Below are positions 31,655 to 47,133 of a stretch of DNA of 64,000 nucleotides, in pieces. Positions within the stretch are counted from its first letter, which is position 1. Each line of letters starts with the position of its first letter. A program made the position numbers and the translations under genes. Source of the stretch: Trypanosoma brucei (taxonomy: Eukaryota); NCBI GenBank assembly GCA_000002445.1, contig CP000068.1:416001-480000 (forward strand), read 5' to 3'. The notes beneath the pieces are model-generated. The model saw nothing but the letters and a program-made list of their open reading frames with translations, was not told the DNA's origin and searched no databases.

Positions 31655-32010
31655 ACGAATCTTAAATTCAATTCCCGCAATTCCTTCACATGCTTTAGTC
31701 CTCTTACCTTCTGTAAGCCGATACATTCACGAATATCAATAACCTCCATCTTTACACATCCACCCACATATACATCTTCCAACGCTTTACACTTTTCAAT
31801 GGACAGTTTGAGATGATTATTTGCTTCACGCACATCAACATTACGCAAGAGCTCACACTCATCAATTCGTATTTCCCTTATACTCTCATGATATCTGAAC
31901 ATACTAAAACTTTTAATACTGCCACAATTACTCACAAGAAAGCTCTTCAAGGCTTTACATTGCCCCAAGCCCTTTAACCTGCCTATACCCTGACAGTGCG
32001 TGGGTTTCAC
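31655..32010 (-). pseudogene. LRRP fragment truncated at both ends (array-terminal partial copy)
   Basis: The ORF 31624..32010 shares the first ~115 aa with the truncated LRRP copies (MKPTHCQGIGRLKGL...). It then diverges into flanking sequence (RFVGLMDLGRLK) at the array boundary ~31655, and has no ATG at its 5' end. Confidence 0.6.
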
Positions 32011-32563
32011 ATTGCCATATACCCAGTTTGTTAGTGATTGTGGGTTTTATTAAATATTGTTACTGACGCCATTGTTTCATGAGCCGTGTCAGGTCCCTGC
32101 AGGTCTCACTAAAATTGCATACGAAATATGCCCATTTACCTCACTATTCCCTTCACGGAATATTTTCTTATTACACCATAAATAGGGGGAAATGCATTCA
32201 TTACTGAATGGCCAGACCACACCTCCACGTCTTTAAACTATTTAGTCAGAAAATTGCACATCTTACAAACACTGTTTCATATGAGGGGAGGAGTGTGCTA
32301 CACATGCGCCTTTACTTCACGCCAGCTTGGGCTGTAGATATGCACATACAACCCATTTTCACATCTCCCGTAATATTTATTACAGAAAAAATAGTTTATT
32401 ATTTTTATTTTAAGGGGAAGGGGGACGGAGGGAGGGAGAAAAATATCATATATAATGGAAGGGAAACCTCTCCCGCAACAGGTGAGAAATTTTTAAATTG
32501 TAACCTCTCCAGAGGTTAGCCCTTCCTAAACTAAGCAAAATAAGCAAGAGATGATAATATCAT

Positions 32564-33868
32564 TCATTCCTTCCTGTAACATGGAGAGGTTGCCCCACCC
32601 TTTTTGTCAGGTGAAGAAACTGCCTCACCTTTCTCATCAATTACATCTTCAGCATTACCTCTTCTTCGTCTCACAAACACAAGCACCACAGCTGTAATAA
32701 TCGCGAGGATAGCGACAGGTATGAGAACAGCCATAAGTATTACCTTGCTTTCCTTGATCTTACTGCTTAGTGCTGATCTATCACTAGTCTCCAGGAGGTC
32801 ACCGAAGTCCGCATCAGCTCCAACGACCTCTGGTTCGGTTCCACTTGTTGTTCCTGTTCCTGTTCCTGTTGATATTGTTGTTGATGTTCCTCCTGTTGTT
32901 TCTGTTGCCCCACCCTCTCCAGTTGAAGTGCCAACCCCTCGGTGTGTGGTCTCGGGAGCGGCACCTCCAGGGTTAGTGAATTTTGCACCCTTTCTGCTTG
33001 CTTCCTTGGCTTCGACCAAAACTTCGCTGAGTGGCTTGCCTGCACTCAGTCCGCTGTGGACAGCACTTGCACCACTATAAAAGCCAGATACATCATCATG
33101 AGTCTTTTTACCTTGTTCGTGTGACTCTTCGAGTTCCTTAAGCTTGTTCGTGGCTGAGTCATAGTCGGCCTTCCAGTTGTTGGTGACTGGCTGTTGGCCT
33201 TTTGGTTTCTTATTTTCCCATTCTTCTAAGGCTTGTTTCATCGTCCCTGAGGATATATCGTCATAAAGTGTTGTTTTGTGACCCGTTGCTTCGCAGTCAA
33301 TGGTATTCCTTCCCGTCCCTGAATAATGGGTTTTGAACGTAATACCTTCACAGCTAGTGGTCTGTGCATTATCTCCCTTCTTCCCGCAGTACCACTCTAA
33401 AAGCTGGTGAAGTCCACTGGAATTTTGGCCGTCATAGTCAAGTTCCCATCCTCGCGCCTTTTTTGCCGCTTCTGTCGCAGCCTGGCAGCGTTTTTTCGCT
33501 TCCTCGCCATACATTTTCGCTGTTGGCAGCTTATTCTTTAATTTATCCTTCGCCTTTTCGTATATGTCCTTCACTTTTTTAGTATCAGCATCCGAAAGCT
33601 TCGAATAGCCATCGTTACTGTGTGCACGGTTTTCCAGTGTTTGTAACCAGTGTTCCAACCTGTCCAGCCAGAGTTGTATATCATCCGCAAAGCCTTGAGT
33701 TTTTTCTCGGATTTTGTCTGCCCTTCTTTTTTCTATAGTTTTAGCAAGATCCGTCAGCTTACATAGCGCCAATGCACCTTCCTTGTTTAGCTTTGTCTCC
33801 CCATTTGCTTCCACCGCTCGTAGCAGTAAACCTGCAAAGGTAACCGCAACCAAGGAACACCTTATCAT
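32564..33868 (-). CDS. ISG64: Invariant surface glycoprotein, ISG65 family (ISG64-like), copy A: type I membrane protein
   Basis: The 434-aa protein has a signal peptide (MIRCSLVAVTFAGLLLRAVEA), a helical ectodomain with conserved Cys, and a Thr/Gly-rich stalk (GTSTGEGGATETTGGTSTTISTGTGTGTTSGTEPE). A single TM (VILMAVLIPVAILAIITAVVLVFV) is followed by a short Lys-containing cytoplasmic tail (RRRRGNAEDVIDEKGEAVSSPDKKGGATSPCYRKE). Three tandem copies interleaved with LRRP match, from memory (no search), the T. brucei chr5 ISG64 cluster. Confidence 0.8.
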   Translation of the reverse strand: MIRCSLVAVTFAGLLLRAVEANGETKLNKEGALALCKLTDLAKTIEKRRADKIREKTQGFADDIQLWLDRLEHWLQTLENRAHSNDGYSKLSDADTKKVKDIYEKAKDKLKNKLPTAKMYGEEAKKRCQAATEAAKKARGWELDYDGQNSSGLHQLLEWYCGKKGDNAQTTSCEGITFKTHYSGTGRNTIDCEATGHKTTLYDDISSGTMKQALEEWENKKPKGQQPVTNNWKADYDSATNKLKELEESHEQGKKTHDDVSGFYSGASAVHSGLSAGKPLSEVLVEAKEASRKGAKFTNPGGAAPETTHRGVGTSTGEGGATETTGGTSTTISTGTGTGTTSGTEPEVVGADADFGDLLETSDRSALSSKIKESKVILMAVLIPVAILAIITAVVLVFVRRRRGNAEDVIDEKGEAVSSPDKKGGATSPCYRKE

Positions 33869-34306
33869 ATTTCCCTTGTATCAAACTTCGCTTCTTTGTA
33901 TATTTCGCAAGCCAGTTCACTCTCCCACATAAATACAATTATGCACAAAAAGAAGCAATACTCATAGAATCATCAGCAAACATTATTGTAACTTTAGCAA
34001 TACAACCGCAGTTATCATCTTTACTTCCACTTCATAATCATATTATCTTACAAAGGCAATCACATCATTCCAACAGTAACAACTTTCCACTCTCAGATAT
34101 CCTGTTGATATCCTTGTCTCCTAGTTTTGCTGAAGGATAAAATAAATATTCTGCCACACCAACTTATAGTTGCTTATGGTTTCTCTTATTTCCAATTCCA
34201 TGGGAGGAGGATACACATATGCATATATCATGTATGAAAGAAGTATTTCCTTTTGATGTGATGATTACTGGGTATGAACAAACAAATAGTAACATTCATA
34301 AATTAG

Positions 34307-34939
34307 CTACCTAACAACTTGGTCATTATGAGTAGAATGGGAGGTGTCATTGTCACCGCTACGTTTCGAATAGTATTCTGTTTCACTGATAACTTCCACC
34401 CTGTAGTTGAATAATTTCAGCCTCTCCTGTGTAACCACACTATCAGAAATCACAATACTCCTCAGCACCCTACAATATCTCAAAAATCTCAAATCCTCCA
34501 GTTTCTCACAACACTTCACATTCAGCTTTTCCAACCTCGTGTCTTCATACCTGTGTATTCCCGTTATCTCTCGCAGGTTTCGACACCCGGATAAATTCAA
34601 TTCCCGCAATTCCTTCACATGCTTTAGTCCTCTTACCTTCTGTAAGCCGATACATTCACGAATCTCAATAACCTCCATCTTTACACATCCACCCACATAT
34701 ACATCTTCCAACGCTTTACACTTTTCAATGATCAGTTTGAGAAGATTATCTGCTTCACGCACATCAACATTACGCAAGAGCTCACACTCATCAATTCGTA
34801 TTTCCCTTATACTCTCATGATATCTGAACATACTAAAACTTTTAATACTGCCACAATTACTCACAAGAAAGCTCTTCAAGGCTTTACATTGCCCCAAGCC
34901 CTTTAACCTGCCTATACCCTGACAGTGCGTGGGTTTCAC
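34307..34939 (-). CDS. Leucine-rich repeat protein (LRRP, ESAG8-related), 5'-truncated copy; possible pseudogene
   Basis: Its 210 codons match the C-terminal 210 aa of the full-length copy at 40190..41098. The ORF-track start is a GTG at the repeat-unit junction. A stop lies 17 codons upstream, and the first in-frame ATG is codon 36. Confidence 0.55.
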   Translation of the reverse strand: MKPTHCQGIGRLKGLGQCKALKSFLVSNCGSIKSFSMFRYHESIREIRIDECELLRNVDVREADNLLKLIIEKCKALEDVYVGGCVKMEVIEIRECIGLQKVRGLKHVKELRELNLSGCRNLREITGIHRYEDTRLEKLNVKCCEKLEDLRFLRYCRVLRSIVISDSVVTQERLKLFNYRVEVISETEYYSKRSGDNDTSHSTHNDQVVR

Positions 34940-35493
34940 ATTGCCATATACCCAGCCTTTTATCGACCATGAGTTTATTAGATATTGTTAACTGACGCCA
35001 TTGCTTCATGAGCCGTGTCAGGTCCCTGCAGGTGTCGCTAAAAATGCATACGAAATATGCCCATATACCTCATTACTCCCTTACCGGAATATTTTTTTAT
35101 TACACCATAAATAGGGGGAAATATATTCATTACTGAATGGCCAGACCACACCTCCACATCTTTAAATTATTTAGTCAGAAAATTGCACATCTTACAAACA
35201 CTGTTTTATATGGGGGGGAGGGGTGTGCTACACATGCGCCTTTACTTCACGCCAGCTTGGGCTGTAGATATGCACACACAACCCATTTTCACATCTCCCG
35301 TAATATTTATTACAGAAAAAATAGTTTATTATTTTTATTTTAAGGGGAAGGGGGACGGAGGGAGGGAGAAAAATATCATATATAATGGAAGGGAAACCTC
35401 TCCCGCAACAGGTGAGAAATTTTTAAATTGTAACCTCTCCAGAGGTTAGCCCTTCCTAAACTAAGCAAAATAAGCAAGAGATGATAATATCAT
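34940..35493 (-). promoter_or_regulatory. Conserved ISG 3' flank / 3'UTR-intergenic segment (repeated at ~32011-32563 and 37879-38432), candidate mRNA-processing and stage-regulation region
   Basis: It is ~550 nt, almost base-for-base identical between repeat units 2 and 3 and highly similar in unit 1. It contains a short inverted repeat (aacctctc cag agaggtt) and poly-purine/pyrimidine tracts. The regulatory role is inferred. Confidence 0.3.
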
Positions 35494-36801
35494 TCATTCC
35501 TTCCTGTAACATGGAGAGGTTGCCCCACCCTTTTTGTCAGGTGAAGAAACTGCCTCACCTTTCTCATCAATTACATCTTCAGCATTACCTCTTCTTCGTC
35601 TCACAAACACAAGCACCACAGCTGTAATAATCGCGAGGATAGCGACAGGTATGAGAACAGCCATAAGTATTACCTTGCTTTCCTTGATCTTACTGCTTAG
35701 TGCTGATCTATCACTAGTCTCCAGGAGGTCACCGAAGTCCGCATCAGCTCCAACGACCTCTGGTTCGGTTCCACTTGTTGTTCCTGTTCCTGTTCCTGTT
35801 GATATTGTTGTTGATGTTCCTCCTGTTGTTTCTGTTGCCCCACCCTCTCCAGTTGAAGTGCCAACCCCTCGGTGTGTGGTCTCGGGAGCGGCACCTCCAG
35901 GGTTAGTGAATTTTGCACCCTTTCTGCTTGCTTCCTTGGCTTCGACCAAAACTTCGCTGAGTGGCTTGCCTGCACTCAATCCACTATGAAGAGCGTACGC
36001 TGCATTATAAAAGCCAGATACATCGTTAACTGTCTTTTTCCCCTTTTCGTGTGACTCTTCGAGTTCCTTAAGCTTGTTCGTGGCTGAGTCATAGTCGGCC
36101 TTCCAGTTGTTGTTGACTGGCTCACCGTCGCTTTTTGGCTTCTTCCTCTCCCAATTCTCTAAGGCCTCTTTCATCGTCCCTGATGTCACATCCAGGTAAA
36201 ACGGCACTGTAGAACCCGTTCCTTTGCAATCAATTGGGTTCCTTTCCCGCCCTAAGTAGTGTTCTTTTACTTTAACACCATCACACTTCTGATTGTTTGC
36301 ATTATCTCCCTTCGTTCCGCAGTACCACTCTAAAAGCTGGTGAAGTCCACTAGAGTTTTGACCCTCATCATCAAGTCCCCATCCTCGCGCCCTCTTTGCT
36401 GCCTCGGTCACCTCCTGATGGCGTTTTCCAGCTTCCTCGCCAAATTCTTTCGCTTTCGGGAGTTGTTCACTCACTTTACCTTTCGCCTTTTCGTATATTT
36501 CCTTCACTTTTTTAGTATCAGCATCCGAAAGCTTCGAATAGCCGTTGTTGCTGTGTGCACGGGTTTCCAGTGTTTGTAACCAGTGTTCCAACCTGTCCAG
36601 CCAGAGTTTCAACTCATCTGCGAAACCTTCAGTGTCCTTTCTGATTTTATCTGCTTTTTTTGTTGCAACAAGATCAGCGACATCCGTCAGCTTACACAGC
36701 GCCAACGCACCATCTTTGGTCAACTTTGCATTCGAGTTCGCTACCACCACTCGTAGCAGTAAACCTGCAAAGGTAATCGCAACCAAGGAATACCTTATCA
36801 T
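35494..36801 (-). CDS. ISG64: Invariant surface glycoprotein, ISG65 family (ISG64-like), copy B
   Basis: The 435-aa protein has the same architecture as copy A. The C-terminal ~150 aa (stalk, TM, tail) are identical to copies A and C, while the ectodomain diverges in a mosaic fashion. Confidence 0.8.
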   Translation of the reverse strand: MIRYSLVAITFAGLLLRVVVANSNAKLTKDGALALCKLTDVADLVATKKADKIRKDTEGFADELKLWLDRLEHWLQTLETRAHSNNGYSKLSDADTKKVKEIYEKAKGKVSEQLPKAKEFGEEAGKRHQEVTEAAKRARGWGLDDEGQNSSGLHQLLEWYCGTKGDNANNQKCDGVKVKEHYLGRERNPIDCKGTGSTVPFYLDVTSGTMKEALENWERKKPKSDGEPVNNNWKADYDSATNKLKELEESHEKGKKTVNDVSGFYNAAYALHSGLSAGKPLSEVLVEAKEASRKGAKFTNPGGAAPETTHRGVGTSTGEGGATETTGGTSTTISTGTGTGTTSGTEPEVVGADADFGDLLETSDRSALSSKIKESKVILMAVLIPVAILAIITAVVLVFVRRRRGNAEDVIDEKGEAVSSPDKKGGATSPCYRKE

Positions 36802-37245
36802 ATTTCCCTTGTATCAAACTTCGCTTCTTTGTGTATTTCGCAAGCCAGTTCACTTTCCCATATAAATGCAATTATGCACACAAAGAAAAACAGGCGATAT
36901 TCATAGAATCATCGGCAAACATTATTGTAGTTTCAGCAATACAACCGCAGTTATCATCTTTACTCCCACTTCATAATCATATTATCTTACAAAGGCAATC
37001 ACATGATTCCAACAGTAATAACTTTCCACTCTCAGATATCCTATTGATATCCTTGTTTTTTAGTTTTGCTGAAGGATAAAATAAATATTCTGCCACACCA
37101 ACTTATAGTTGCTTATGGTTTCTCTTATTTCCAATTCCATGGGAGGTGAGTACACATATGCATATATCATGCATGAAAGAAGTATTTCCTTTTGATGTGA
37201 TGATTACTGGGTATGAACAAACAAATAGTAACATTCATAAATTAG

Positions 37246-37878
37246 CTACCTAACAACTTGTTCATTATGAGTTGAGTGGGAGGTGTCATTGTCACCGCTA
37301 CGTTTTGAATAGTATTCTGTTTCACTGATAACTTCCACCCTGTAGTTGAATAATTTCAGCCTCTCCTGTGTAACCACACTATCAGAAATCACAATACTCC
37401 TCAGCACCCTACAATATCTCAAAAATCTCAAATCCTCCAGTTTCTCACAACACTTCACATTCAGCTTTTCCAACCTCGTGTCTTCATACCTGTGTATTCC
37501 CGTTATCTCTCGCAGGTTTCGACACCCAGATAAATTCAATTCCCGCAATTCCTTCACATGCTTTAGTCCTCTTACCTTCTGTAAGCCGATACATTCACGA
37601 ATCTCAATAACCTCCATCTTTACACATCCACCCACATATACATCTTCCAACGCTTTACACTTTTCAATGATCAGTTTGAGAAGATTATCTGCTTCACGCA
37701 CATCAACATTACGCAAGAGCTCACACTCATCAATTCGTATTTCCCTTATACTCTCATGATATCTGAACATACTAAAACTTTTAATACTGCCACAATTACT
37801 CACAAGAAAGCTCTTCAAGGCTTTACATTGCCCCAAGCCCTTTAACCTGCCTATACCCTGACAGTGCGTGGGTTTCAC
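37246..37878 (-). CDS. Leucine-rich repeat protein (LRRP), 5'-truncated copy; possible pseudogene
   Basis: It is identical to 34307..34939 except one residue (D/E) and has the same junction breakpoint. Confidence 0.55.
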   Translation of the reverse strand: MKPTHCQGIGRLKGLGQCKALKSFLVSNCGSIKSFSMFRYHESIREIRIDECELLRNVDVREADNLLKLIIEKCKALEDVYVGGCVKMEVIEIRECIGLQKVRGLKHVKELRELNLSGCRNLREITGIHRYEDTRLEKLNVKCCEKLEDLRFLRYCRVLRSIVISDSVVTQERLKLFNYRVEVISETEYYSKRSGDNDTSHSTHNEQVVR

Positions 37879-38432
37879 ATTGCCATATACCCAGCCTTTT
37901 ATCGACCATGAGTTTATTAGATATTGTTAACTGACGCCATTGCTTCATGAGCCGTGTCAGGTCCCTGCAGGTGTCGCTAAAAATGCATACGAAATATGCC
38001 CATATACCTCATTACTCCCTTACCGGAATATTTTTTTATTACACCATAAATAGGGGGAAATATATTCATTACTGAATGGCCAGACCACACCTCCACATCT
38101 TTAAATTATTTAGTCAGAAAATTGCACATCTTACAAACACTGTTTTATATGGGGGGGAGGGGTGTGCTACACATGCGCCTTTACTTCACGCCAGCTTGGG
38201 CTGTAGATATGCACATACAACCCATTTTCACATCTCCCGTAATATTTATTACAGAAAAAATAGTTTATTATTTTTATTTTAAGGGGAAGGGGGACGGAGG
38301 GAGGGAGAAAAATATCATATATAATGGAAGGGAAACCTCTCCCGCAACAGGTGAGAAATTTTTAAATTGTAACCTCTCCAGAGGTTAGCCCTTCCTAAAC
38401 TAAGCAAAATAAGCAAGAGATGATAATATCAT

Positions 38433-39737
38433 TCATTCCTTCCTGTAACATGGAGAGGTTGCCCCACCCTTTTTGTCAGGTGAAGAAACTGCCTCACCTT
38501 TCTCATCAATTACATCTTCAGCATTACCTCTTCTTCGTCTCACAAACACAAGCACCACGGCTGTAATAATCGCGAGGATAGCGACAGGTATGAGAACGGC
38601 CATAAGTATTACCTTGCTTTCCTTGATCTTACTGCTCAGTGCTGATCTATCACTAGTCTCCAGGAGGTCACCGAAGTCCGCATCAGCTCCAACGACCTCT
38701 GGTTCGGTTCCACTTGTTGTTCCTGTTCCTGTTCCTGTTGATATTGTTGTTGATGTTCCTCCTGTTGTTTCTGTTGCCCCACTCTCTCCAGTTGAAGTGC
38801 CAATCCCTCGCTGTGTGGTTTCGGGAGCGGCACCTCCAGGGTTAGTGAATTTTGCACCCTTTCTGCTTGCTTCCTTGGCTTCGACCAAAACTTCGCTGAG
38901 TGGCTTGCCTGCACTCAGCCCACTATGGACAGCGTACGCTGCATTGTAAAAGCCAGATACATCATCATGAGTCTTTTTACCTTGTTCGTGTGACTCTTCT
39001 AGTTCTTCCATTTTTTTCACAGCTGAGTCGTAGTCGCTTTTCCATTTCTCGTAGTCAGCACTTATTTTTTTCGGTTTCTTCTTCTCCCAATCCTCTAAGG
39101 CTTGTTTCATCGTCCCTGCGGATACATGTAAGTAAAAGAGAGCCGTATAGCCCGTTGCTTCGCAATCAATGGTATTCCTTCCCGTCCCTGAATAATGGGT
39201 TTTGAACGTAATACCTTCACAGCTAGTGCTCTGTGCATTTTCTCCCCTCTTCCCGCAGTACCACTCTAAAACTAGATGAAGTCCACTGGAATTTTGACCC
39301 TCATCATCAAGTCCCCATCCTCGCGCCCTCTTTGCTGCCTCGGTCACAGCCTGGCAGTGTTTTTTTGCTTCATCGCCCCATTTTTTAGCTTCTGGCAGCT
39401 TCTCCTTTAATTTATCCTTTGCCTTTTCGTATATGTCCTTCACTTTTTTAGTATCAGCATCCGAAAGCTTCGAATAGCCATCGTTACTGTGTGCAGGGTC
39501 TTGTAGCGTCTGTAACCAACTGTCCAAGCTGTCCAACCAGAGCTTCAATCCATGTGCAAAGCCTTCAGTATCCCGTCCAATCTTATCTGCTTTTTTATCT
39601 CCGACAGTTTTAGCAAGATCCGTCAGCTTACATAGCGCCAACGCACCATCTCTGTTCAACTTTGCATTCGAGTTCGCTACCACCACTCGTAGCAGTAAAC
39701 CTGCAAAGGTAACCGCAACCAAGGAATACCTTATCAT
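38433..39737 (-). CDS. ISG64: Invariant surface glycoprotein, ISG65 family (ISG64-like), copy C
   Basis: The 434-aa protein has the same architecture. Its ectodomain is a patchwork of segments shared with copy A (SCEGITFKTHYSGTGRNTIDCEATG) and with copy B (GWGLDDEGQNSSGLH; NAAYA-HSGL). Confidence 0.8.
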   Translation of the reverse strand: MIRYSLVAVTFAGLLLRVVVANSNAKLNRDGALALCKLTDLAKTVGDKKADKIGRDTEGFAHGLKLWLDSLDSWLQTLQDPAHSNDGYSKLSDADTKKVKDIYEKAKDKLKEKLPEAKKWGDEAKKHCQAVTEAAKRARGWGLDDEGQNSSGLHLVLEWYCGKRGENAQSTSCEGITFKTHYSGTGRNTIDCEATGYTALFYLHVSAGTMKQALEDWEKKKPKKISADYEKWKSDYDSAVKKMEELEESHEQGKKTHDDVSGFYNAAYAVHSGLSAGKPLSEVLVEAKEASRKGAKFTNPGGAAPETTQRGIGTSTGESGATETTGGTSTTISTGTGTGTTSGTEPEVVGADADFGDLLETSDRSALSSKIKESKVILMAVLIPVAILAIITAVVLVFVRRRRGNAEDVIDEKGEAVSSPDKKGGATSPCYRKE

Positions 39738-40189: not shown

Positions 40190-41098
40190 CTACCTAACAA
40201 CTTGTTCATTATGAGTTGAGTGGGAGGTGTCATTGTCACCGCTACGTTTTGAATAGTATTCTGTTTCACTGATAACTTCCACCCTGTAGTTGAATAATTT
40301 CAGCCTCTCCTGTGTAACCACACTATCAGAAATCACAATACTCTTCAGCACCCTACAATATCTCAAAAATCTCAAATCCTCCAGTTTTTCACAACACTTA
40401 ACATTCAGCTTTTCCAACCTCGTGTCTTCATATCTGTGTATTCCCGTTATCTCTCGCAGGTTTCGACACCCGGATAAATTCAATTCCCGCAATTCCTTCA
40501 CATGCTTTAGTCCTCTTACCTTCTGTAAGCCGATACATTCACGAATATCAATAACCTCCATCTTTACACATCCACCCACGTATACATCTTCCAACGCTTT
40601 ACACTTTTCAATGGACAGTTTGAGAAGATTATCTGCTTCACGCACATCAACATTACGCAAGAGCTCACACTCATCAATTCGAATTTCCCTTATACTCTCA
40701 TGATATCTGAACATACTAAAACTTTTAATACTGCCACAATTACTCACAAGAAAGCTCTTCAAGGCTTTACATTGCCCCAAGCCCTTTAACCTGCCTATAC
40801 CCTGACAGTGCTTGAGTTTTACACTTTCTAACGCTTTGCAGTGCTTCAGAGGTTCTAATTCAGAAACTGTGCGACAGTCTGTAACCGTTATTTTCTGTAA
40901 ACCATATAACTGTTCCACTCCTTTAAAGGTTTTGAACTCATCACATTGTTTTATATCCAGGCTTTTGGTGGCGGTGAATTCACGGGAAAGTATCACCAAG
41001 TTTTTTAAACCCCTAAATTTCGCAATCTTTAGAGTTTCTTGGAAATAACTATACGGAACTTCCGTTTCTTCTCTCGCCCTCTTCGCCACAATGTTCAT
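40190..41098 (-). CDS. Leucine-rich repeat protein (LRRP; ESAG8-related LRR family), full-length copy relative to the array fragments
   Basis: The 302-aa protein starts at an ATG (41098, MNIVAKRAR...). It has repeated ~23-24 aa LRR units with conserved C/L/N positions (e.g. LKHCKALESVKLKHCQGIGRLKGLGQCKALKSFLVSNCGSIKS). Its 3' two-thirds are identical to the array copies. Confidence 0.7.
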   Translation of the reverse strand: MNIVAKRAREETEVPYSYFQETLKIAKFRGLKNLVILSREFTATKSLDIKQCDEFKTFKGVEQLYGLQKITVTDCRTVSELEPLKHCKALESVKLKHCQGIGRLKGLGQCKALKSFLVSNCGSIKSFSMFRYHESIREIRIDECELLRNVDVREADNLLKLSIEKCKALEDVYVGGCVKMEVIDIRECIGLQKVRGLKHVKELRELNLSGCRNLREITGIHRYEDTRLEKLNVKCCEKLEDLRFLRYCRVLKSIVISDSVVTQERLKLFNYRVEVISETEYYSKRSGDNDTSHSTHNEQVVR

Positions 41099-43383
41099 TT
41101 TGCCTTTGTCTTGGTAGTAATCAGGGAGAAAAAAAAGATGTCATGCACACATTTTCTGACGCATGAGTATATCTGCATCGGAAAATCGATAGATTCCTAT
41201 ACGTTAGTATTAGTATTATTATTATTTTTCAGAAAAAAAATATATATAGTTACGTTCGTGATATGGAGGAGAACAGCGGGAAGGAAACTATAAAGTACCT
41301 CCTTCCATCCAAATGAGGGGAAAAAAGTGCGGGGGCGACAATTTTGTCGCCACTACTTGTGGTTTCTAATTGGTTTCGTTACGTCTAACACTAACTAACT
41401 GATTAACCGTTTGTGCATTAATGCGGTGCCCTTCATATTTAACTTACGTAAGGTCGAACAACACGACATCCACACATATTTGTAAACAATTTAAATATTT
41501 GTTTATATATTCCATCGCTCGCTCACGACTGGCAGTCTGTTTAGTGAACAACTTAAACTCGGTTACCGACCCACTTGTTTCATCTGCCTCTTTTTTGTTT
41601 TTTTTTTTCTCCTTTGGTTACGGTCTCTGCTTCACACTTAGGGATTGGCATGTGGGCGTAAGCGCGTGCATATATTTGGAATAATAAAAAAAAAAAAAAG
41701 ATGGGTCATTGGGTTCCATTAGATGAGACATGCGGCCAAACCAAAACCGAATATTCCCACAAAATATGACACACCGGTGCCAAACATCTCCGCGGCATTT
41801 GTTATTGCGGTCTGTTGTGCATGAAAATCATTGGCTTCGCACATCTGTTGGTTACTTTTCATGTGGCACGAGCGAATTGTGTGTGACAATTAGGGGGAGA
41901 AAAAAAAAAAAGAGAGAACCAAATCTCCAACGCCGTTTAAATTTTTGCCCTGAAAGAAATGGTTCATAAATGTGAAATGGCTAAAAGCAAAACGAGGATT
42001 CCAATTTACGCGGTATATGCTGCACGGAGGAACAAGGAAACAAACCCGCATTAATTTGTGGGTAAGTCGGCGAGCCCTCAGTTTGCAACAATCATGAATT
42101 AAATTGAAGTGAAGTCCAAACATTTGTAGAAGGAAAGAAAATGGAAAAAATTAAAAAAAAAAACACGTCATTACAAGAGACAATGACAGCTGTGACAACA
42201 TAATGCTTTCGATGATACGCCAACTTCTTTCAAAAATAACTATCGAGCTCACTCAATTTCATCCAAATTTTAAATGCCAGAGGTGATACCAACGGCAGCA
42301 CGCACACGCGTAGCTTTCCAACGTGCCCTCCGCGGAATCATTATTTCACGTCGACGATAAACTTTCACATCTGCAATAGTTACGTGGCGCCACAACTTCT
42401 TTTTTTTTAAAAATATAAAAAAACCCAACAACACAACTTTCACTGCAGAGAAGAGGACGATGTCACGTGTTTATCTTTCCCAATGTATTAGATTTAAAGC
42501 GGAAGGAACATATGTGCTGCGCGTTGTAGTGGATACGGTATCATTAAAATAATGAATACAACATTGGATTTGTCTACCTGCATGACGAAGTGGGGAAGGG
42601 GAAGGGAGGGGAGAAAATAAGAAAGCAACAAAATAAAAAGGAGAGAAATATATATTTGCGTGTATGTGTATGTGTGTAGCGGAAACAATCCCCGCAAAGT
42701 AAATGCGCTTGTGCAAACAAAATAGAAGGGACGGTTAGTGACCACACGTGTGTGCGTATGGGGACAATGAATATAAAACACAGGACCGGAGATATACACG
42801 AAAGAAACCAAAGAAACAAACAAACAAACGGGAATTTTAAAAAGAAAAACCAAGAGAACAAATACATGTGAGCCCGCACCCAGGTTAATGAAGAAAGGGT
42901 GGAAGAAAAGAGGGAAGTCAAGAAATAAAAGGGGTAAGGAGCGTATAGCGAAATAAAGAGGGGAGAACATACGTGAAGATTATCATTCGATATATCTACC
43001 CCGTTACACTATGATGCCCGAGCCCGCAAGCGCGCCCCACGGAAACAAAGAGAGAGAAAAGCGCACGATATAAGGCACGGGGTTTGAAACAAATATATAT
43101 ACGAAAAGAAAAAGGGAAAGGGAGATGTGATGCTCTTGTCAACCCCCATCTCCTTACCTTTTGTTGGTTACTGCGTAAAGACGAAGTTTAGTGGGCAAGA
43201 ATAAGATAATATATAATGGTAAAAACACGTTAAACTAAAGGGATGCCATAATGGCTATGGTAACAAAAAATTCGGAGGGTTAGGGTTAGCCGCGCGTACG
43301 GCGGACTCAGGGTTGGGAACAAGCAGGGAACAAATGCAAAGCTTAGCCGAGCAGTGAATAAACCAAATCACCTGTAAACATTG

Positions 43384-46300
43384 TCATAACGTTACCGTAA
43401 AGCCATCAGTATCGCTCAACTGCCCAGTGGCGATACTTGTGCTGCGTCCCGTGGATTGAGAGACCACGGTGTGATCTATGACCTTTCCAACCTTCGCAGC
43501 AACAATATGTATGACTTGCCTACAGTAGTCATCGCTCCATACGAATCCTGCCTCGGGTGGCAACGCAACACGCCACCGTTCGCAAAAGGGCATCAGTGCT
43601 TTCCGTCGTTGTGCGGCTGTAAACGTGCCCAGTAGGGCATTGAGGGAGTCGACAATAGTTTGGGCTGAACGCGTTATTGCATTGCCTGAGAGACCGCGTT
43701 CGCCGCTGGAAATAGAGCCTTCAGAGCTATCCCCGAAGACACAAGTGTCCTTATCGATATCCAGCGCTGCAAAGATCCTTCCCGGCACAGCATTCAGTTG
43801 CCATATTTCCACAGGTGCGTTCACACCGCGAAGTTCAACGGGAGCAAGTGCGGTGACATCAATTTGCTCACGCTCCTCAGCTGAAAGTGACATGTATGTC
43901 GCACGTGTCATTAACACCTGCCCACCATCTGCCACACCTTCCGTCCGCGCTGCCATGTTTGATGTGTGCCCGTAGTAGTCATATCCTTTAGTAACCTCAT
44001 CATTCCGAATTTCGCATAACCCGGTGTGAATCCCAACACGCACACGCAGGCCACTCCACAGCTGGTCGTACACGTTAGGATCCAGATGTGCGGACGGCGG
44101 AGTATACCCCTCTTCTTCTTCAGCTCGCCGCCGCTCCATATCTCGGTAGAGCTCATCGAACGCGGTCGTTCCCCAGTTGTGGTGCAAGAATGTCCGTTGC
44201 AGATCATGTGCAAGCTGTACGGCAGCGAAGGGGTCCTTGCAAGCAATCATGAAGGAGTCTCCAACCGTCTTTACCTCATAACAGTTGTATCGCACAATAA
44301 GTGACCGAATCAAACGGTGGTGCAGGTCAACAGCATCGGGCATCAACTCGGGGTATGCCGACCACTGCGCAGTGCTGCTTTCAATGTCTGTGAAAACAAG
44401 CGTCACAGGATCTGACAGTTCCTTCGGCGCATTCCCGTTGTCACGGGCACTACGCTGTGCGAAGTACAATTGACAAACAACTATCGCCACAAACAGAAAC
44501 ACAGTGAAGAGAGAACCAACGACGATGCCTATGAGCGTTGAGCCTGTAGATCCAGCCGCGTTCGGGTCATGATATTGCATCGACGGCGTGACGGGTAGAG
44601 CGAGAGCGGGTACAGAGGCATTCAACACACGTGCCATCGACCACACGGAGATGCGGGTTGCTCCATAGTTCACAGCACATCCACCATCGCCAAGACCATC
44701 GACATCGTCGTTAACACACTCACCATGGTTGAAAGGGCCATAGTACATATCGCCGGCACTCACACCGATGTTGTTATAGAAAAGATTAATCACCGTCTCC
44801 CCGCTCACCTTTTCTATACGCGGAATGATAGTCCGAACTACTCGTGCGGCGGCGAAACCCACCAATGCCAATGGCGTCCACTGCGCTGGGTCTGGAAGCG
44901 CGGCGTGAAAGCCCTGTACAATTTCGGATGAGCTGTGGACCTCTGCCCAGTGCGGCAGGTTTGTTGCAATTAGCAGTCGGTTGGCGCTTGAGCTACCGTT
45001 GAAAGCTTTCAAAACCTCATCGTATAGAAGCACAACATCGAAGAACGGAACCAGCACATGTACGTCCGGGTTGCGTTCCATGTGTGCCACTACTGAACCA
45101 ACATCGCTGGCAGTGAGACCAATTATGAACACATTGCCGTAAACAGGAAGTGCACCTTCTATTGTTTCATTGACTCGTGCTGTCACCAGAGAATGCGGCG
45201 TCACACCAAATGTCGCGAGCGTCCTTGTCAGTACGTCCCCGATTGCATTAGAGTCCTCCCCCCGAATGACGGCCCGCACGCCGCTGCCGCTGCTGCTCGA
45301 AATGTATGCCGCCAACACGAACAGTTGTTGCTCAAGTGTAGGCGACAAATGGATCACATTCTTCATACGGCGATTTAGCTGTGGGGTGAGGGGCACGGGA
45401 TCAATGAACGCCAAACCCGGCGTCCGCATTATTGTAGGATGCACTACGCCAAATACGGCTGTAACTGTCCTGGTATTCAACTCTTGCTGCAAGCTACCAG
45501 TCAGCCCATCTGAAAGTGCGGGAAGCGTATGCATAAATACCCTATTCGACTGCTCATGATGCCCCCTACTAACGCTGACCGATGCCGCATTGCGCATAAT
45601 TGTCGCCGCCCTTAATGCAATGGGGTCATCTAATGTTAGGATGAAAAGACCGATTAGCGGAGCGTGCAACCCACCGGAATCACTGTAGCACCCTGATACG
45701 TCGCGCGTGATTAGCCCATCCGCCAAGGGCGAAAGGTTACCGTTCTCTTCCAACCTGTTCATGTAAATCACATGCCCACCCTGGTTACAACGGCATGTAG
45801 CGCCCTGAGCAGCTGCGGAGCCTGTGCATTCGCCACCGTAGTCACCAATGACGAGGTCATCAATCACGTACCGGCGCTGATTGTACAGCGATTTTTTAAA
45901 TTCTTCCCTGCTCGTTAGCCACTCGCGATTGCTTAGCGCTTGCAGCAGTGCCTCACCGGCAACCCATCCAAGCACCGCCAGCTTCCCAGTGGTGGCATGC
46001 TTGAGAAAATGGTCTTCACCACCGGGGCTACTTTCGTTCTTTTGCGCCTTTAGATATGACCTCATTTCCTTCTGAAACCGTCGTACGGCATGGTGTTTGA
46101 CGTCGGTTGCGAGCGGGTTTGTTCCCGTGATAATAACTTGACCTGACGCAAAGGCGACCTTTCCACTTCGACGGAGTTCTTCAGCTATGATGCTAATAGC
46201 TGGCTGCAGCGCAGATGGGGCCAGGATGTACATGTCTTTTGTGCGTTCGTCCGAAGGCACCGCCAAAAGAAACTTGAACGTATCTGTGTTGGGAGGCCCT

Positions 46301-47133
46301 AATACAAGCACACCCTGCGGATGCAAGGAAGCGAATCGACTCCACATCGCATTGAAGACTTCACCGCTAGCCGAACCATAATCGGAACTTTCTAGCGCAA
46401 AAACTCCGCAGAGATCACGCCCCATTCTTGACATCAGCCTCATCGTGAGTTCATACTGTACCTCACCATAAGAGGTATTGTGCAAATGCATTAAACCCAA
46501 TCGAAGTGGTCGTAGTTGACTCAGTGCGTAGTAAATGAGGGCGATGAGTTCGGCAACAGGATCGGCTCCAAGGAAGTACAAATGCGGTGTCCACTTGCGG
46601 AGCCCGCTTGACCCAGTAACTGGGGCGAAGGCAATTACATTGTGCTTTTCGAGTAGAGGTGTCACGGCTAAGACATCACGGTCACTCAACGGCCCGAGCA
46701 GCACCAGCAATTCCGATTTGTTTGAAAGTTTCTTGTCAAGCGCATCAATGCTTTGATTACCATAAGATCCCCAGCTTACAGGAACAACGTGCACATTTCG
46801 CGCTGCGGTCCAATTACGTGCAGCGAGCGAGCTGTTGAAACCAGAAATGATGGCATCACCAATTGGTGAGGGAGCACGGAGGCCACGCATAAGGCACAGC
46901 ACAGTCACTGTAACGTTATCTCCCGAATGCACGGAAGCCCGCAGTGGCATCGGAAGCAACATCAACAGCGAAAACATAAACAATGGCACCCACAACCTTG
47001 GGACTCTTGAGTTATCCTTCCCTTCACAGCGAAGGCCAACACCAACACCATTGGCGCTCCCTTTAACGTGGACGGACTTTTCTCCTCCTCTTTTTCTCCA
47101 TTTGTTCCCGAGTAAACTCGTCCTGTCGTTCAT
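43384..47133 (-). CDS. GRESAG4: Receptor-type adenylate cyclase, GRESAG4/ESAG4 family
   Basis: The 1249-aa protein has a large extracellular periplasmic-binding-protein-like domain and a single TM (LIGIVVGSLFTVFLFVAIVVCQLYF). The C-terminal class III cyclase catalytic domain carries FTDIESSTAQWS, VKTVGDSFMIA and GHTSNMAARTE motifs. An alternative start at 46977 (MFSLLMLLPMPLRA signal peptide) would remove a 52-aa N-terminal leader. Confidence 0.85.
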   Translation of the reverse strand: MNDRTSLLGNKWRKRGGEKSVHVKGSANGVGVGLRCEGKDNSRVPRLWVPLFMFSLLMLLPMPLRASVHSGDNVTVTVLCLMRGLRAPSPIGDAIISGFNSSLAARNWTAARNVHVVPVSWGSYGNQSIDALDKKLSNKSELLVLLGPLSDRDVLAVTPLLEKHNVIAFAPVTGSSGLRKWTPHLYFLGADPVAELIALIYYALSQLRPLRLGLMHLHNTSYGEVQYELTMRLMSRMGRDLCGVFALESSDYGSASGEVFNAMWSRFASLHPQGVLVLGPPNTDTFKFLLAVPSDERTKDMYILAPSALQPAISIIAEELRRSGKVAFASGQVIITGTNPLATDVKHHAVRRFQKEMRSYLKAQKNESSPGGEDHFLKHATTGKLAVLGWVAGEALLQALSNREWLTSREEFKKSLYNQRRYVIDDLVIGDYGGECTGSAAAQGATCRCNQGGHVIYMNRLEENGNLSPLADGLITRDVSGCYSDSGGLHAPLIGLFILTLDDPIALRAATIMRNAASVSVSRGHHEQSNRVFMHTLPALSDGLTGSLQQELNTRTVTAVFGVVHPTIMRTPGLAFIDPVPLTPQLNRRMKNVIHLSPTLEQQLFVLAAYISSSSGSGVRAVIRGEDSNAIGDVLTRTLATFGVTPHSLVTARVNETIEGALPVYGNVFIIGLTASDVGSVVAHMERNPDVHVLVPFFDVVLLYDEVLKAFNGSSSANRLLIATNLPHWAEVHSSSEIVQGFHAALPDPAQWTPLALVGFAAARVVRTIIPRIEKVSGETVINLFYNNIGVSAGDMYYGPFNHGECVNDDVDGLGDGGCAVNYGATRISVWSMARVLNASVPALALPVTPSMQYHDPNAAGSTGSTLIGIVVGSLFTVFLFVAIVVCQLYFAQRSARDNGNAPKELSDPVTLVFTDIESSTAQWSAYPELMPDAVDLHHRLIRSLIVRYNCYEVKTVGDSFMIACKDPFAAVQLAHDLQRTFLHHNWGTTAFDELYRDMERRRAEEEEGYTPPSAHLDPNVYDQLWSGLRVRVGIHTGLCEIRNDEVTKGYDYYGHTSNMAARTEGVADGGQVLMTRATYMSLSAEEREQIDVTALAPVELRGVNAPVEIWQLNAVPGRIFAALDIDKDTCVFGDSSEGSISSGERGLSGNAITRSAQTIVDSLNALLGTFTAAQRRKALMPFCERWRVALPPEAGFVWSDDYCRQVIHIVAAKVGKVIDHTVVSQSTGRSTSIATGQLSDTDGFTVTL

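What the first reader, a model, noticed from the sequence alone, without database searches (positions are those of the whole stretch)
34307..34990. LRRP copies inside the array are 5'-truncated at an identical breakpoint (also at 37246-37930 and 31655-32060)
The array LRRP ORFs lack the first ~92 codons of the full-length gene at 40190..41098. They begin at a non-ATG codon at exactly the same junction. An in-frame stop lies 17 codons upstream, and the junction is followed by the same unrelated flank (ttattagatattgttaactgacgccattgcttcatgag...). The duplicated unit was therefore [ISG + 3' two-thirds of LRRP], and the array was probably generated by unequal crossing-over. The fragments are probably pseudogenes kept identical by homogenisation. 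Alternatively they express an N-terminally shortened LRR protein from Met36.
Basis: seen in the sequence. Interest (0 to 1): 0.5.

Follow-up and report, generated by a model that had tools for sequence, protein, structure and literature searches.

The report
Truncated LRR gene copies in ISG64 array
In Trypanosoma brucei chromosome 5, each repeat of the ISG64 surface-glycoprotein array carries the last two-thirds of the neighbouring leucine-rich-repeat gene, an ordinary by-product of tandem amplification that the reference genome already annotates as 174-residue genes.

Summary
The window is T. brucei TREU927 chromosome 5, the ISG64 locus. The full LRR gene Tb927.5.1440 (40190-41098, minus strand, 302 aa) is followed by three 2.93-2.94 kb units. 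Each unit holds LRRP codons 93-302, a spacer, an ISG64 gene and the ISG64 3' flank.

All LRRP copies in the array start at the same junction (37878, 34939, 32010). They follow the same flank, and an in-frame stop lies 17 codons upstream.

One correction is needed. The last copy (31663-32010) is also cut at its 3' end, at codon 208.

The same two junctions occur in T. b. gambiense and T. b. equiperdum, so they are old and were inherited. Full and truncated copies share lineage-specific alleles, which shows sequence exchange between them. Unequal homologous recombination between units is the best explanation.

"Pseudogene" is not established. The two internal copies are annotated as coding genes (Tb927.5.1400 and .1420, 174 aa from the first ATG). 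Published spliced-leader mapping places a 5' end about 140 nt upstream of the junction. All nine copies compared keep an intact frame, with pN/pS mostly 0.2-0.4.

That signal could be imported from the full copy. One procyclic transcriptome found no transcript of their own for these genes, and four upstream ATGs precede the start.

The locus is ordinary, already annotated and of low interest.

The parts
40190..41098 (-). Full-length LRR protein gene Tb927.5.1440 (302 aa), the donor of the truncated copies
   Evidence: Exact protein match to XP_844818.1. Pfam LRR hits. Published splice-acceptor site at window 41108-41109, giving a 10-nt 5'UTR (Kolev 2010 Table S12). The sequence shows a polypyrimidine tract and AG at 41111-41110.
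38433..39737 (-). ISG64 gene, unit 0. Tb927.5.1430 by gene order (inferred).
   Evidence: ORF of 434 aa. It is a paralogue of the neighbouring copy that hit Pfam ISG65-75.
37879..38432 (-). ISG64 3' flank 'F' of unit 0, ending at the F|LRRP junction. It holds a polypyrimidine tract and the AG acceptor equivalent to 35081-35080.
   Evidence: Alignments A1 and A4. Position of the AG is inferred from the 2939-bp unit spacing.
37246..37878 (-). 5'-truncated LRRP copy (codons 93-302). The annotated CDS is Tb927.5.1420, 37246-37770, 174 aa.
   Evidence: The v4 coordinates 453246-453770 in Kolev Table S2 equal the window coordinates plus 416000.
35494..36801 (-). ISG64 gene Tb927.5.1410 (435 aa)
   Evidence: Exact match to XP_844815.1. 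Pfam PF11727 ISG65-75, E = 1.3e-50.
34940..35493 (-). ISG64 3' flank 'F' of unit 1. It has polypyrimidine tracts at about 35216-35208 and 35120-35108, and AG at 35081-35080 as the likely spliced-leader acceptor. It also holds the upstream ATGs at 35073, 35009 and 35001; the fourth, at 34947, starts here and its 12-nt uORF runs across the junction.
   Evidence: Sequence. The uORF coordinates of Jensen 2014 map to the window with offset 473095. Their uORF scan runs from the major SL site to the CDS ATG. The AG is conserved in all 9 copies.
34307..34939 (-). 5'-truncated LRRP copy, the finding itself. The annotated CDS is Tb927.5.1400, 34307-34831, 174 aa from the first ATG.
33869..34306 (-). LRRP 3' flank and ISG64 5' region. 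It is shared by the full and truncated copies and carries the signals for ISG64 trans-splicing (inferred).
   Evidence: Repeat families D5-D7. Sequence. Alignment A4.
32564..33868 (-). ISG64 gene, unit 2. Tb927.5.1390 by gene order (inferred).
   Evidence: ORF of 434 aa. ISG64 gene numbering.
32011..32563 (-). Terminal copy of the ISG64 3' flank F
   Evidence: Alignments A1 and A2. The last ~50 nt are 77% identical to the internal units.
31663..32010 (-). Terminal LRRP fragment, truncated at both ends (codons 93-208 only), followed by unrelated sequence
   Evidence: The same two junctions occur in T. b. gambiense (L001 19167-19515) and T. b. equiperdum (L002, about 13209-13556).

Best explanation
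The window is the ISG64 locus of Trypanosoma brucei chromosome 5. It lies at the 3' end of a minus-strand polycistronic transcription unit.

Shown by the sequence:
- A single illegitimate junction joins the ISG64 3' flank (F) to codon 93 of the LRR gene. It arose once, before the T. brucei subspecies diverged.
- Every LRRP copy in the array carries that same breakpoint. This follows if the locus since gained (and possibly lost) whole 2.9-kb units by unequal homologous recombination between LRRP-homologous segments.
- Continued crossing-over or gene conversion keeps the LRRP part, the ISG64 C-terminus and the flanks 96-100% alike. The ISG64 ectodomain-coding parts have diverged.

Two equally parsimonious origins fit the structure. 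In the first, a 348-bp internal LRRP fragment (codons 93-208) was copied downstream of a single ISG64 gene, and recombination between that fragment and the full gene built the array. In the second, a tandem duplication of [codons 93-302 ... F] was followed by a deletion that clipped the last copy at codon 208.

Inferred:
- The truncated copies are passengers of ISG64 amplification.
- F must carry a polypyrimidine tract and AG acceptor so that the upstream ISG64 mRNA is polyadenylated. As a result, the fragment is trans-spliced into its own mRNA at about 35080.
- That mRNA has a 5'UTR of about 248 nt with four upstream ATGs.
- At most it encodes a 174-aa protein from Met129 of the parent. That product would lack the disordered N-terminus and the first 3.5 LRRs.
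- I judge this product more likely dispensable or poorly made than functional.
For: Locus identity:
- Exact protein matches to Tb927.5.1440.1420.1400 and .1410.
- Coordinate offsets agree with two papers.

Array structure:
- Head-to-tail units of 2944, 2939 and 2929 bp.
- One shared 5' junction and one terminal 3' junction.
- Both junctions are conserved in DAL972 and in the T. equiperdum assembly.

Sequence exchange:
- Lineage-specific alleles are shared by full and truncated copies within TREU927 (sites 190, 378, 411, 438).
- Polymorphism among the 9 truncated copies is mosaic.
- Alleles next to the junction (sites 3, 19, 20, 23, 28) are never seen in full copies. This is expected if exchange rarely reaches the edge of homology.

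Copy number:
- Extra ISG64 + truncated-LRRP units sit in unplaced DAL972 contigs.

Origin:
- No remnant of the lost LRRP parts in the flanks.
- No spliced-leader remnant at the junction.

Transcript:
- The uORFs that Jensen 2014 scanned from the major SL site start at 35073, not at the ATGs at 35108 or 35130. This places the SL site between 35074 and about 35107, matching AG 35081-35080 after the tract at 35120-35108.

Poor expression of the fragments:
- Kolev 2010 Table S2 lists both genes as having no transcript of their own in procyclic forms.
- Tb927.5.1440 and the ISG64 genes, but not .1400 or .1420, appear in bloodstream-upregulated lists.
Against: The codon-level signal looks like a coding sequence under constraint:
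- None of 9 truncated copies has a stop or an indel. The flanks of the same copies have 10-12 indel events for 107 variable sites (Poisson P about 0.007-0.016).
- pN/pS is mostly 0.2-0.4.
- Variable sites downstream of Met37 fall at codon positions [9,5,22], against [3,4,1] upstream (Fisher P = 0.019).
- Alleles not seen in any full copy split 11 synonymous to 11 non-synonymous. The neutral expectation is about 22-29% synonymous (P = 0.004-0.03).

This would also fit a translated 174-aa protein. Public annotation calls the copies coding genes.

Limits of the evidence:
- Only three full-length copies were available, so 'private' alleles may be imports.
- Several variable sites are linked, so they are not independent events.
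- Copy-number variation rests on weak assemblies. The single-unit T. equiperdum state may be a repeat collapse, given about 2.4x PacBio coverage plus short reads.
- Absence from expression lists may reflect discarded multi-mapping reads.
Confidence: 0.6

Rival explanations
1. The truncated copies are working genes. Each unit makes a trans-spliced mRNA that is translated from Met129 of the parent frame (ATG at 34831 and 37770). The product is a 174-aa protein of about six LRRs. It is expressed with ISG64 in bloodstream forms and kept by purifying selection.
For: - Annotated as coding in TREU927 and DAL972 and treated as mRNA in 2023.
- An SL-defined 5' end exists.
- Read counts above baseline in bloodstream samples only, for the uORF windows at 35001-34978 and 35009-34884.
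- The frame is intact in 9 of 9 copies with no indels.
- Third-position bias appears only downstream of the proposed start.
- pN/pS is 0.2-0.4, and private alleles split 11 synonymous to 11 non-synonymous.
- The AlphaFold model of the parent shows a regular solenoid with strands every ~23 residues from about 46 to 257. A six-repeat remainder is therefore structurally plausible.
- The ATG has an A at position -3.
Against: - Demonstrated exchange with the selected full-length copy can import the coding-like pattern.
- Four upstream ATGs lie in a ~248-nt leader, including a 126-nt uORF that ends 52 nt before the start.
- No transcript of their own was found in procyclic forms.
- The genes are absent from stage-regulated lists that include .1440 and the ISG64 genes.
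- They occur only in the orthology table of the stored spatial-proteomics supplements.
- The protein would start in the middle of an LRR, without the parent's N-terminal region.
- The column order of the Jensen read counts could not be checked. Part of the 126-nt window is identical to .1440.
Confidence: 0.28
2. The fragments are silent spacer DNA. No separate mRNA is made, and the region is simply part of the ISG64 3'UTR or intergenic region. The apparent SL site is a mapping artefact of repeated sequence.
For: - Kolev 2010 states that the 805 ORFs of Table S2, which include .1400 and .1420, made no transcript of their own and were often part of a neighbour's UTR.
- The genes are not found in the stored Vasquez 2014 ribosome-profiling supplements.
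- SL reads were mapped with random placement of multi-reads.
Against: - The Kolev data are from procyclic forms only, where this locus is nearly silent. ISG64 reads 0.55 against 14-60, and .1440 reads 0.55 against 23.6.
- F carries a conserved polypyrimidine tract plus AG exactly where the Jensen uORF list implies the SL site. F occurs only in these units, so multi-mapping can only move reads among units, not create the site.
- Trypanosome polyadenylation of the upstream ISG64 mRNA requires a downstream acceptor of this kind (established knowledge of coupled trans-splicing and polyadenylation).
Confidence: 0.1
3. The structure is an assembly artefact, or a retrocopy of an internally trans-spliced LRRP mRNA.
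For: Tandem repeats are often mis-assembled. A 5' truncation could mimic a processed copy.
Against: - The same unit order and junctions occur in the independent DAL972 assembly, at 92% overall identity with many substitutions. The same junctions also occur in the T. equiperdum assembly.
- The units differ from one another, especially in the ISG ectodomain.
- There is no spliced-leader remnant at the junction: the score is no better than shuffled sequence.
- No poly(A) tract follows any copy.
Confidence: 0.02

Closest known systems
Tandem gene arrays of Trypanosoma brucei evolving by unequal crossing-over and gene conversion (Jackson 2007, BMC Evol Biol 7:54, PMC1855330)
   Same: Head-to-tail units lie inside a polycistronic unit. 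Coding ends and intergenic spacers evolve in concert. An atypical, truncated copy sits at the end of the array; Jackson describes array Tb24 with a 3'-terminal copy lacking N- and C-termini. Dosage increase without promoters is the usual rationale.
   Different: Here the unit holds two unrelated genes, and its boundary falls inside one of them. One gene (ISG64) is amplified whole and the other only as a 3' two-thirds fragment. This particular array is not among those I found discussed in that paper.
Tb927.5.1440-type LRR proteins: T. brucei-specific orthogroup OG0000319 of Moloney 2023, nine genes on chromosomes 1, 3, 4, 5, 8 and 11
   Same: The fragments are about 96-98% identical to Tb927.5.1440 over codons 93-302. 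They hit the same Pfam LRR models and are placed in the same orthogroup.
   Different: They lack the first 92 codons. The only possible product starts at Met129. No function is known for any member from the sources I could read.
Truncated (partial) duplicate genes created at segmental-duplication boundaries, maintained by non-allelic homologous recombination
   Same: One breakpoint is inherited by all copies. The start codon and N-terminus are lost. Sequence identity is kept up by exchange with the intact parent.
   Different: Classical partial duplicates usually lose expression because they lose their promoter. In trypanosomes transcription is polycistronic, and a new 5' end is supplied by any downstream polypyrimidine/AG signal. 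The fragment is therefore likely to be processed into an mRNA anyway.

Membership tests
Tandem array generated and maintained by unequal homologous recombination | Head-to-tail repeats of near-constant unit length | tested here: met
   Units are 2944, 2939 and 2929 bp. Start-to-start spacings are 2929-2944.
Tandem array generated and maintained by unequal homologous recombination | All internal units share one and the same novel junction | tested here: met
   The F|codon-93 junction is the same at 37878, 34939 and 32010. It is also the same in 7 gambiense copies and in the equiperdum terminal copy.
Tandem array generated and maintained by unequal homologous recombination | Concerted evolution: paralogues within a genome share alleles not found in orthologues | tested here: met
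   TREU927-specific alleles at ORF sites 190, 378, 411 and 438 occur in both full and truncated copies. This does not hold for the ISG ectodomain region, which is 62-88% identical.
Tandem array generated and maintained by unequal homologous recombination | Copy number varies between strains by whole units | tested here: inconclusive
   TREU927 has 3 ISG64 units. DAL972 has 3 placed units plus at least 5 more in unplaced contigs. T. equiperdum has 1, but that assembly has low long-read coverage and may be collapsed.
Pseudogene (non-functional gene relic) | Loss of the original start codon and N-terminal coding region | tested here: met
   Codons 1-92 are absent. A stop lies 17 codons upstream, with no in-frame ATG before Met37 of the ORF.
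Pseudogene (non-functional gene relic) | Disabling mutations (stops, frameshifts) in the remaining frame | tested here: not met
   All 9 of 9 internal truncated copies are intact from codon 93 to the normal stop, with no indel. P(no stop by chance) is only 0.13-0.30, so this is weak on its own.
Pseudogene (non-functional gene relic) | Neutral substitution pattern (dN/dS near 1, no codon-position bias) | tested here: not met
   pN/pS is mostly 0.2-0.4, and codon positions are [9,5,22] downstream of Met37. The pattern can be imported from the full copy by gene conversion, so it does not prove function. The three terminal fragments do look neutral, at [7,5,2].
Pseudogene (non-functional gene relic) | No transcript and no translation | tested here: inconclusive
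   No transcript of their own in procyclic forms. An SL site was assigned, and there are bloodstream-only reads in the leader. Gene-level ribosome-profiling values were not retrievable.
Tb927.5.1440-type LRR protein family | Sequence homology to Tb927.5.1440 and LRR domain hits | tested here: met
   96.7-97.2% protein identity over residues 92-302. Pfam LRR_EndoS and LRR_4 score above their cut-offs. Same 90% cluster and same orthogroup.
Tb927.5.1440-type LRR protein family | Complete architecture: N-terminal region plus about 10 LRRs plus C-terminal tail | tested here: not met
   The model of the parent has strands every ~23 residues from 46 to 257. The fragments begin at strand 3 (Val93), and the only ATG-started product begins at residue 129.
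Retrocopy of a trans-spliced mRNA | Spliced-leader remnant at the 5' junction and a poly(A) tract at the 3' end | tested here: not met
   The best local alignment of the 39-nt SL to the 80 nt upstream of the junction scores at or below shuffled controls. There is no poly(A) tract, and the copy continues into the normal LRRP 3' flank.

The most novel reading that the evidence does not exclude
The 174-aa Met129-start product is really made in bloodstream forms. It would act as a short LRR protein, for example a competitor or partner of the full-length Tb927.5.1440 protein. Its dosage would then scale with ISG64 copy number, so amplification of the array created a new, selected gene rather than debris.
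Probability: 0.2. Interest if true: 0.4.

Novelty: already known. Interest (0 to 1): 0.15.

Why it matters
It matters little beyond annotation hygiene. The locus belongs to the reference genome of a model parasite, and the fragments already have gene identifiers.

The useful points are practical:
- Tb927.5.1400 and .1420 are 5'-truncated copies of Tb927.5.1440, and their coding status is unproven.
- Their near-identity to each other and to .1440 means that standard unique-mapping RNA-seq, Ribo-seq and proteomics cannot see them.
- The repeat structure explains why the ISG64 copy number is unstable or under-assembled in other genomes.

ISG64 belongs to the ISG65-75 family of bloodstream-stage surface proteins and has been evaluated as a diagnostic antigen (papers listed). 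Knowing how its array expands is therefore of modest interest.

Tried and rejected
- **Remnants of the missing LRRP parts.** I searched the flanks with relaxed tblastn. All E-values were above 0.3, so the idea that the array copies are old, diverged full genes was rejected.
- **Retrocopy origin.** I tested for a spliced-leader remnant at the junction. There was no signal, so this was rejected.
- **Gene-ID text search.** Full-text search for Tb927.5.1400.1420 or .1440 found nothing. Searches for ISG + LRRP + tandem and for T. brucei tandem arrays found no description of this array.
- **Supplements with nothing useful.** No supplement text is held for Siegel 2010 or for the polysome paper. Vasquez 2014 has none of the IDs. 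The Jensen 2014 gene-level table was cut in storage. Parsons 2015 is not held.
- **Other strains.** Exact-protein look-up of Tb927.5.1420 in public assemblies found nothing on record.
- **Distant homologues.** The homology search found none outside the 90% cluster. PDB hits are generic plant-NLR-type LRRs.
- **T. equiperdum single-unit locus.** I considered it as the ancestral state. I do not rely on it because the assembly may be collapsed.
- **tRNA scan.** No tRNA genes were found in the window, including the strand-switch region.
- **Tool limits.** L002 and L004 never appeared in the script sandbox, so they were handled through alignments only.
Full report
**What the window is**

The full-length LRR ORF (40190-41098, minus strand) is an exact match to Tb927.5.1440 of Trypanosoma brucei brucei TREU927. 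The ISG ORF at 35494-36801 is an exact match to the protein deposited between Tb927.5.1400 and .1420, that is Tb927.5.1410. The 174-aa proteins Tb927.5.1400 and .1420 sit in the same 90% cluster as the full LRR protein.

Coordinates in two papers fix the window as chromosome 5, v4 416001-480000. The three ISG genes are the ISG64 genes Tb927.5.1390.1410 and .1430.

ORFs of 150 aa or more lie on the plus strand up to 28896 and on the minus strand from 32564 onward. The array is therefore the last part of a minus-strand polycistronic unit that abuts a convergent strand-switch region. No tRNA genes are present.

**Checking the observation**

The four LRRP copies were aligned (A1) and compared by BLAST.
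- Homology to the full gene begins at 40822/40823 and at 37878, 34939 and 32010 in the array copies.
- Codons 1-92 are missing. The copies begin at GTG, which is Val93.
- An in-frame stop lies 17 codons upstream.
- The upstream flank is shared by all three.
- The first in-frame ATG is residue 37 of the ORF (Met129 of the parent). It gives exactly the annotated 174-aa products.

The two internal copies differ at 5 of 633 nt. Copy 37246-37878 differs from the full copy at 13 sites, and both copies are about 96-98% identical to it.

The leftmost copy is also cut at its 3' end. Homology stops at 31663, after codon 208, so only 116 codons remain.

Relaxed protein searches find no trace of the missing N- or C-terminal parts in the flanks.

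**Anatomy of the array**

Read on the minus strand, the order is:
1. full LRRP (N-M-C)
2. spacer, ISG64, flank F
3. [M-C, spacer, ISG64, F], twice
4. M' followed by unrelated sequence

Here M is codons 93-208 and C is codons 209-302. Units are 2944, 2939 and 2929 bp long.

Identity between units forms a mosaic:
- 96-100% in the LRRP part, the ISG64 C-terminal part and F
- 62-88% in the ISG64 ectodomain part

**Related genomes**

*T. b. gambiense DAL972.* The locus is collinear with the window at 92% identity. It has the same three ISG64 genes, the same two internal truncated copies and the same terminal fragment. At least five further ISG64 + truncated-LRRP units lie in contigs appended near the end of the DAL972 chromosome-5 record, separated by runs of N. 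The array is therefore probably longer in that strain, or the haplotypes differ.

*T. equiperdum.* The assembly shows full LRRP, one ISG64 and the terminal fragment, with both junctions identical. That assembly rests on about 2.4-fold PacBio coverage plus short reads. A collapse of the repeat would give the same picture, so I do not treat it as a proven one-unit allele.

Both junctions are shared by all three genomes. They therefore predate the split of these subspecies.

**Mechanism of origin**

One shared junction in every unit is what unequal homologous recombination between misaligned units produces.

The present structure needs two illegitimate events, and two orders are equally parsimonious:
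- *Seed fragment.* A 348-bp internal LRRP piece was copied between F and the downstream sequence. Recombination between it and the full gene then generated 5'-truncated copies with complete 3' ends.
- *Duplication then deletion.* A tandem duplication of [M-C ... F] was followed by a deletion that clipped the last copy at codon 208.

A retrocopy origin is excluded. There is no spliced-leader remnant and no poly(A) tract.

Exchange has continued since the subspecies split.
- TREU927-specific alleles at ORF sites 190, 378, 411 and 438 occur in both the full and the truncated copies of that genome.
- The nine truncated copies are mosaics of shared polymorphisms.
- Alleles within about 30 nt of the junction are confined to truncated and terminal copies. 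This is expected at the edge of a homology block.

**Are the fragments pseudogenes?**

Evidence that looks like coding constraint:
- All nine internal copies keep the frame without a stop or an indel. The non-coding flanks of the same copies carry 10-12 indel events for 107 variable sites. The Poisson probability of zero indels is 0.007-0.016, although flank indels sit mostly in homopolymer tracts.
- pN/pS is mostly 0.2-0.4.
- Variable sites downstream of Met37 fall at codon positions [9,5,22], against [3,4,1] upstream of it (Fisher P = 0.019).
- Alleles not seen in any of the three full copies split 11 synonymous to 11 non-synonymous downstream of Met37. Neutral expectation is about 22-29% synonymous (P = 0.004-0.03). 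Upstream the split is 2 to 7.
- The three terminal fragments show no third-position bias, at [7,5,2].

Why this is not decisive: exchange with the selected full copy is demonstrated, only three full copies were sampled, and several variants are linked. The pattern may therefore be imported.

**Expression evidence from the literature**

*Kolev 2010 (procyclic forms).* Both genes are listed among 805 annotated ORFs that made no transcript of their own and were often part of a neighbour's UTR. Tb927.5.1440 has a splice-acceptor site 10 nt upstream of its ATG. The sequence there shows the expected polypyrimidine tract and AG.

*Stage regulation.* The locus is nearly silent in procyclic forms. ISG64 and .1440 are 25- to 43-fold higher in a bloodstream-type stage. 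They are listed as 'up' by spliced-leader trapping. Genes .1400 and .1420 appear in neither list.

*Jensen 2014.* This study mapped SL reads with random placement of multi-reads. It scanned from the major SL site to the CDS start for uORFs.
- For both genes it lists four uORFs. These map to window 35073-35038, 35009-34884, 35001-34978 and 34947-34936.
- The upstream ATGs at 35108 and 35130 are not listed. The SL site therefore lies between 35074 and about 35107.
- This matches AG 35081-35080 just after the tract at 35120-35108, which is conserved in all nine copies.
- Counts for two of these windows are above baseline in bloodstream samples only.
- I could not verify the column order, and part of one window is identical to .1440.

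*Other sources.* Gene-level footprint values were not retrievable. A 2023 orthology table treats both genes as mRNA. It places them with .1440 in a nine-member, T. brucei-only orthogroup that also contains one declared pseudogene.

**Most likely working**

- In trypanosomes the polyadenylation of an mRNA is coupled to the next downstream trans-splice signal. This is established knowledge.
- F must therefore carry such a signal for ISG64 to be processed.
- Whatever follows F is spliced into an mRNA. In the array that is the LRRP fragment.
- The mRNA would have a leader of about 248 nt with four upstream ATGs. One is a 126-nt uORF that crosses the junction out of frame and ends 52 nt before the main ATG. 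This should depress translation.
- An AlphaFold model of the parent (single sequence, mean pLDDT 65, 70-90 across the repeats) shows a disordered N-terminus. It has a solenoid with strands every ~23 residues from 46 to 257, and a disordered tail.
- The 5' breakpoint falls at the start of the third strand. A Met129 product would keep about six repeats.
- I therefore rank 'passenger fragment, processed but probably dispensable' first (0.6), 'functional short LRR protein' second (0.28) and 'silent spacer' third (0.1).

**Comparison with what is known**

This is a standard T. brucei tandem array evolving in concert, of the kind surveyed by Jackson 2007. That survey also reports terminal copies lacking both ends. 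The one twist is that the unit boundary lies inside a second, unrelated gene.

I found no paper that describes this particular array. However, the genes are annotated in the reference genome and the mechanism is textbook. Novelty is 'already known' and interest is low.

Noticed in passing
window 32564-39737 (the three ISG64 genes), e.g. 36000-36800: Identity between repeat units forms a sharp mosaic. The ISG64 ectodomain-coding part is only 62-88% identical. The ISG64 C-terminal part, its 3' flank and the LRRP fragment are 96-100% identical. Either conversion stops at the ectodomain or the ectodomains are kept different.
   Followed up: partly
window 28897-31662: Convergent strand-switch region. 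Large ORFs are on the plus strand up to 28896 and on the minus strand from 32564, so the ISG64/LRRP array is the last element of its transcription unit. No tRNA genes are present. Kolev 2010 lists a novel transcript, Tb5.NT.37, with an acceptor site at window 29676.
   Followed up: partly
L003 1-20525 and L004 1-15452 (T. b. gambiense DAL972 chromosome-5 record, 1.33-1.39 Mb): At least five more ISG64 + truncated-LRRP units lie in contigs appended to the end of the pseudomolecule, with a run of N after L003 ~13,650. The gambiense array is under-assembled, or its two haplotypes differ.
   Followed up: partly
L002 10001-13600 (T. b. equiperdum, CM010676.1): Only one ISG64 gene lies between the full LRRP and the doubly truncated fragment, which is annotated as a 92-aa protein. 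This could be a true minimal allele or a collapsed repeat, because the assembly has very low long-read coverage.
   Followed up: partly
window 40822 (Val93) and 40475 (Leu208) of the full gene; 32010 and 31663 of the terminal fragment: The two ends of the terminal fragment fall at almost the same phase of the LRR, in the 'LxL' beta-strand, five repeats apart (116 codons, about 5 x 23). In the structure model they sit in strands 92-96 and 205-209. This may be coincidence.
   Followed up: partly
window 34884-35009 and 37823-37948, minus strand: A 126-nt upstream ORF starts in the ISG64 flank, crosses the junction out of the LRRP frame and ends 52 nt before the annotated start. Jensen 2014 reports read counts for it above baseline in bloodstream samples only.
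   Followed up: partly
L001 10001-10990 versus window 40190-41098: The gambiense full-length LRRP is annotated as 329 aa, against 302 aa in TREU927. The published acceptor site 10 nt upstream of the TREU927 ATG supports the shorter start there. The gambiense start may be over-extended.
   Followed up: no
window 34407-34820, 37346-37759, 40290-40703 (plus strand); 32604-33080, 35534-35989, 38473-38949 (plus strand): Long antisense ORFs of 137-158 aa recur inside every LRRP and ISG64 copy. They are repeated only because the units are repeated, and nothing suggests they are genes.
   Followed up: no
window 43384-47133, minus strand: A 1249-aa ORF lies upstream of the array. Its gambiense counterpart carries receptor-type adenylate cyclase domains (periplasmic-binding-like plus guanylate cyclase Pfam hits), so it is a GRESAG4-type gene.
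   Followed up: no
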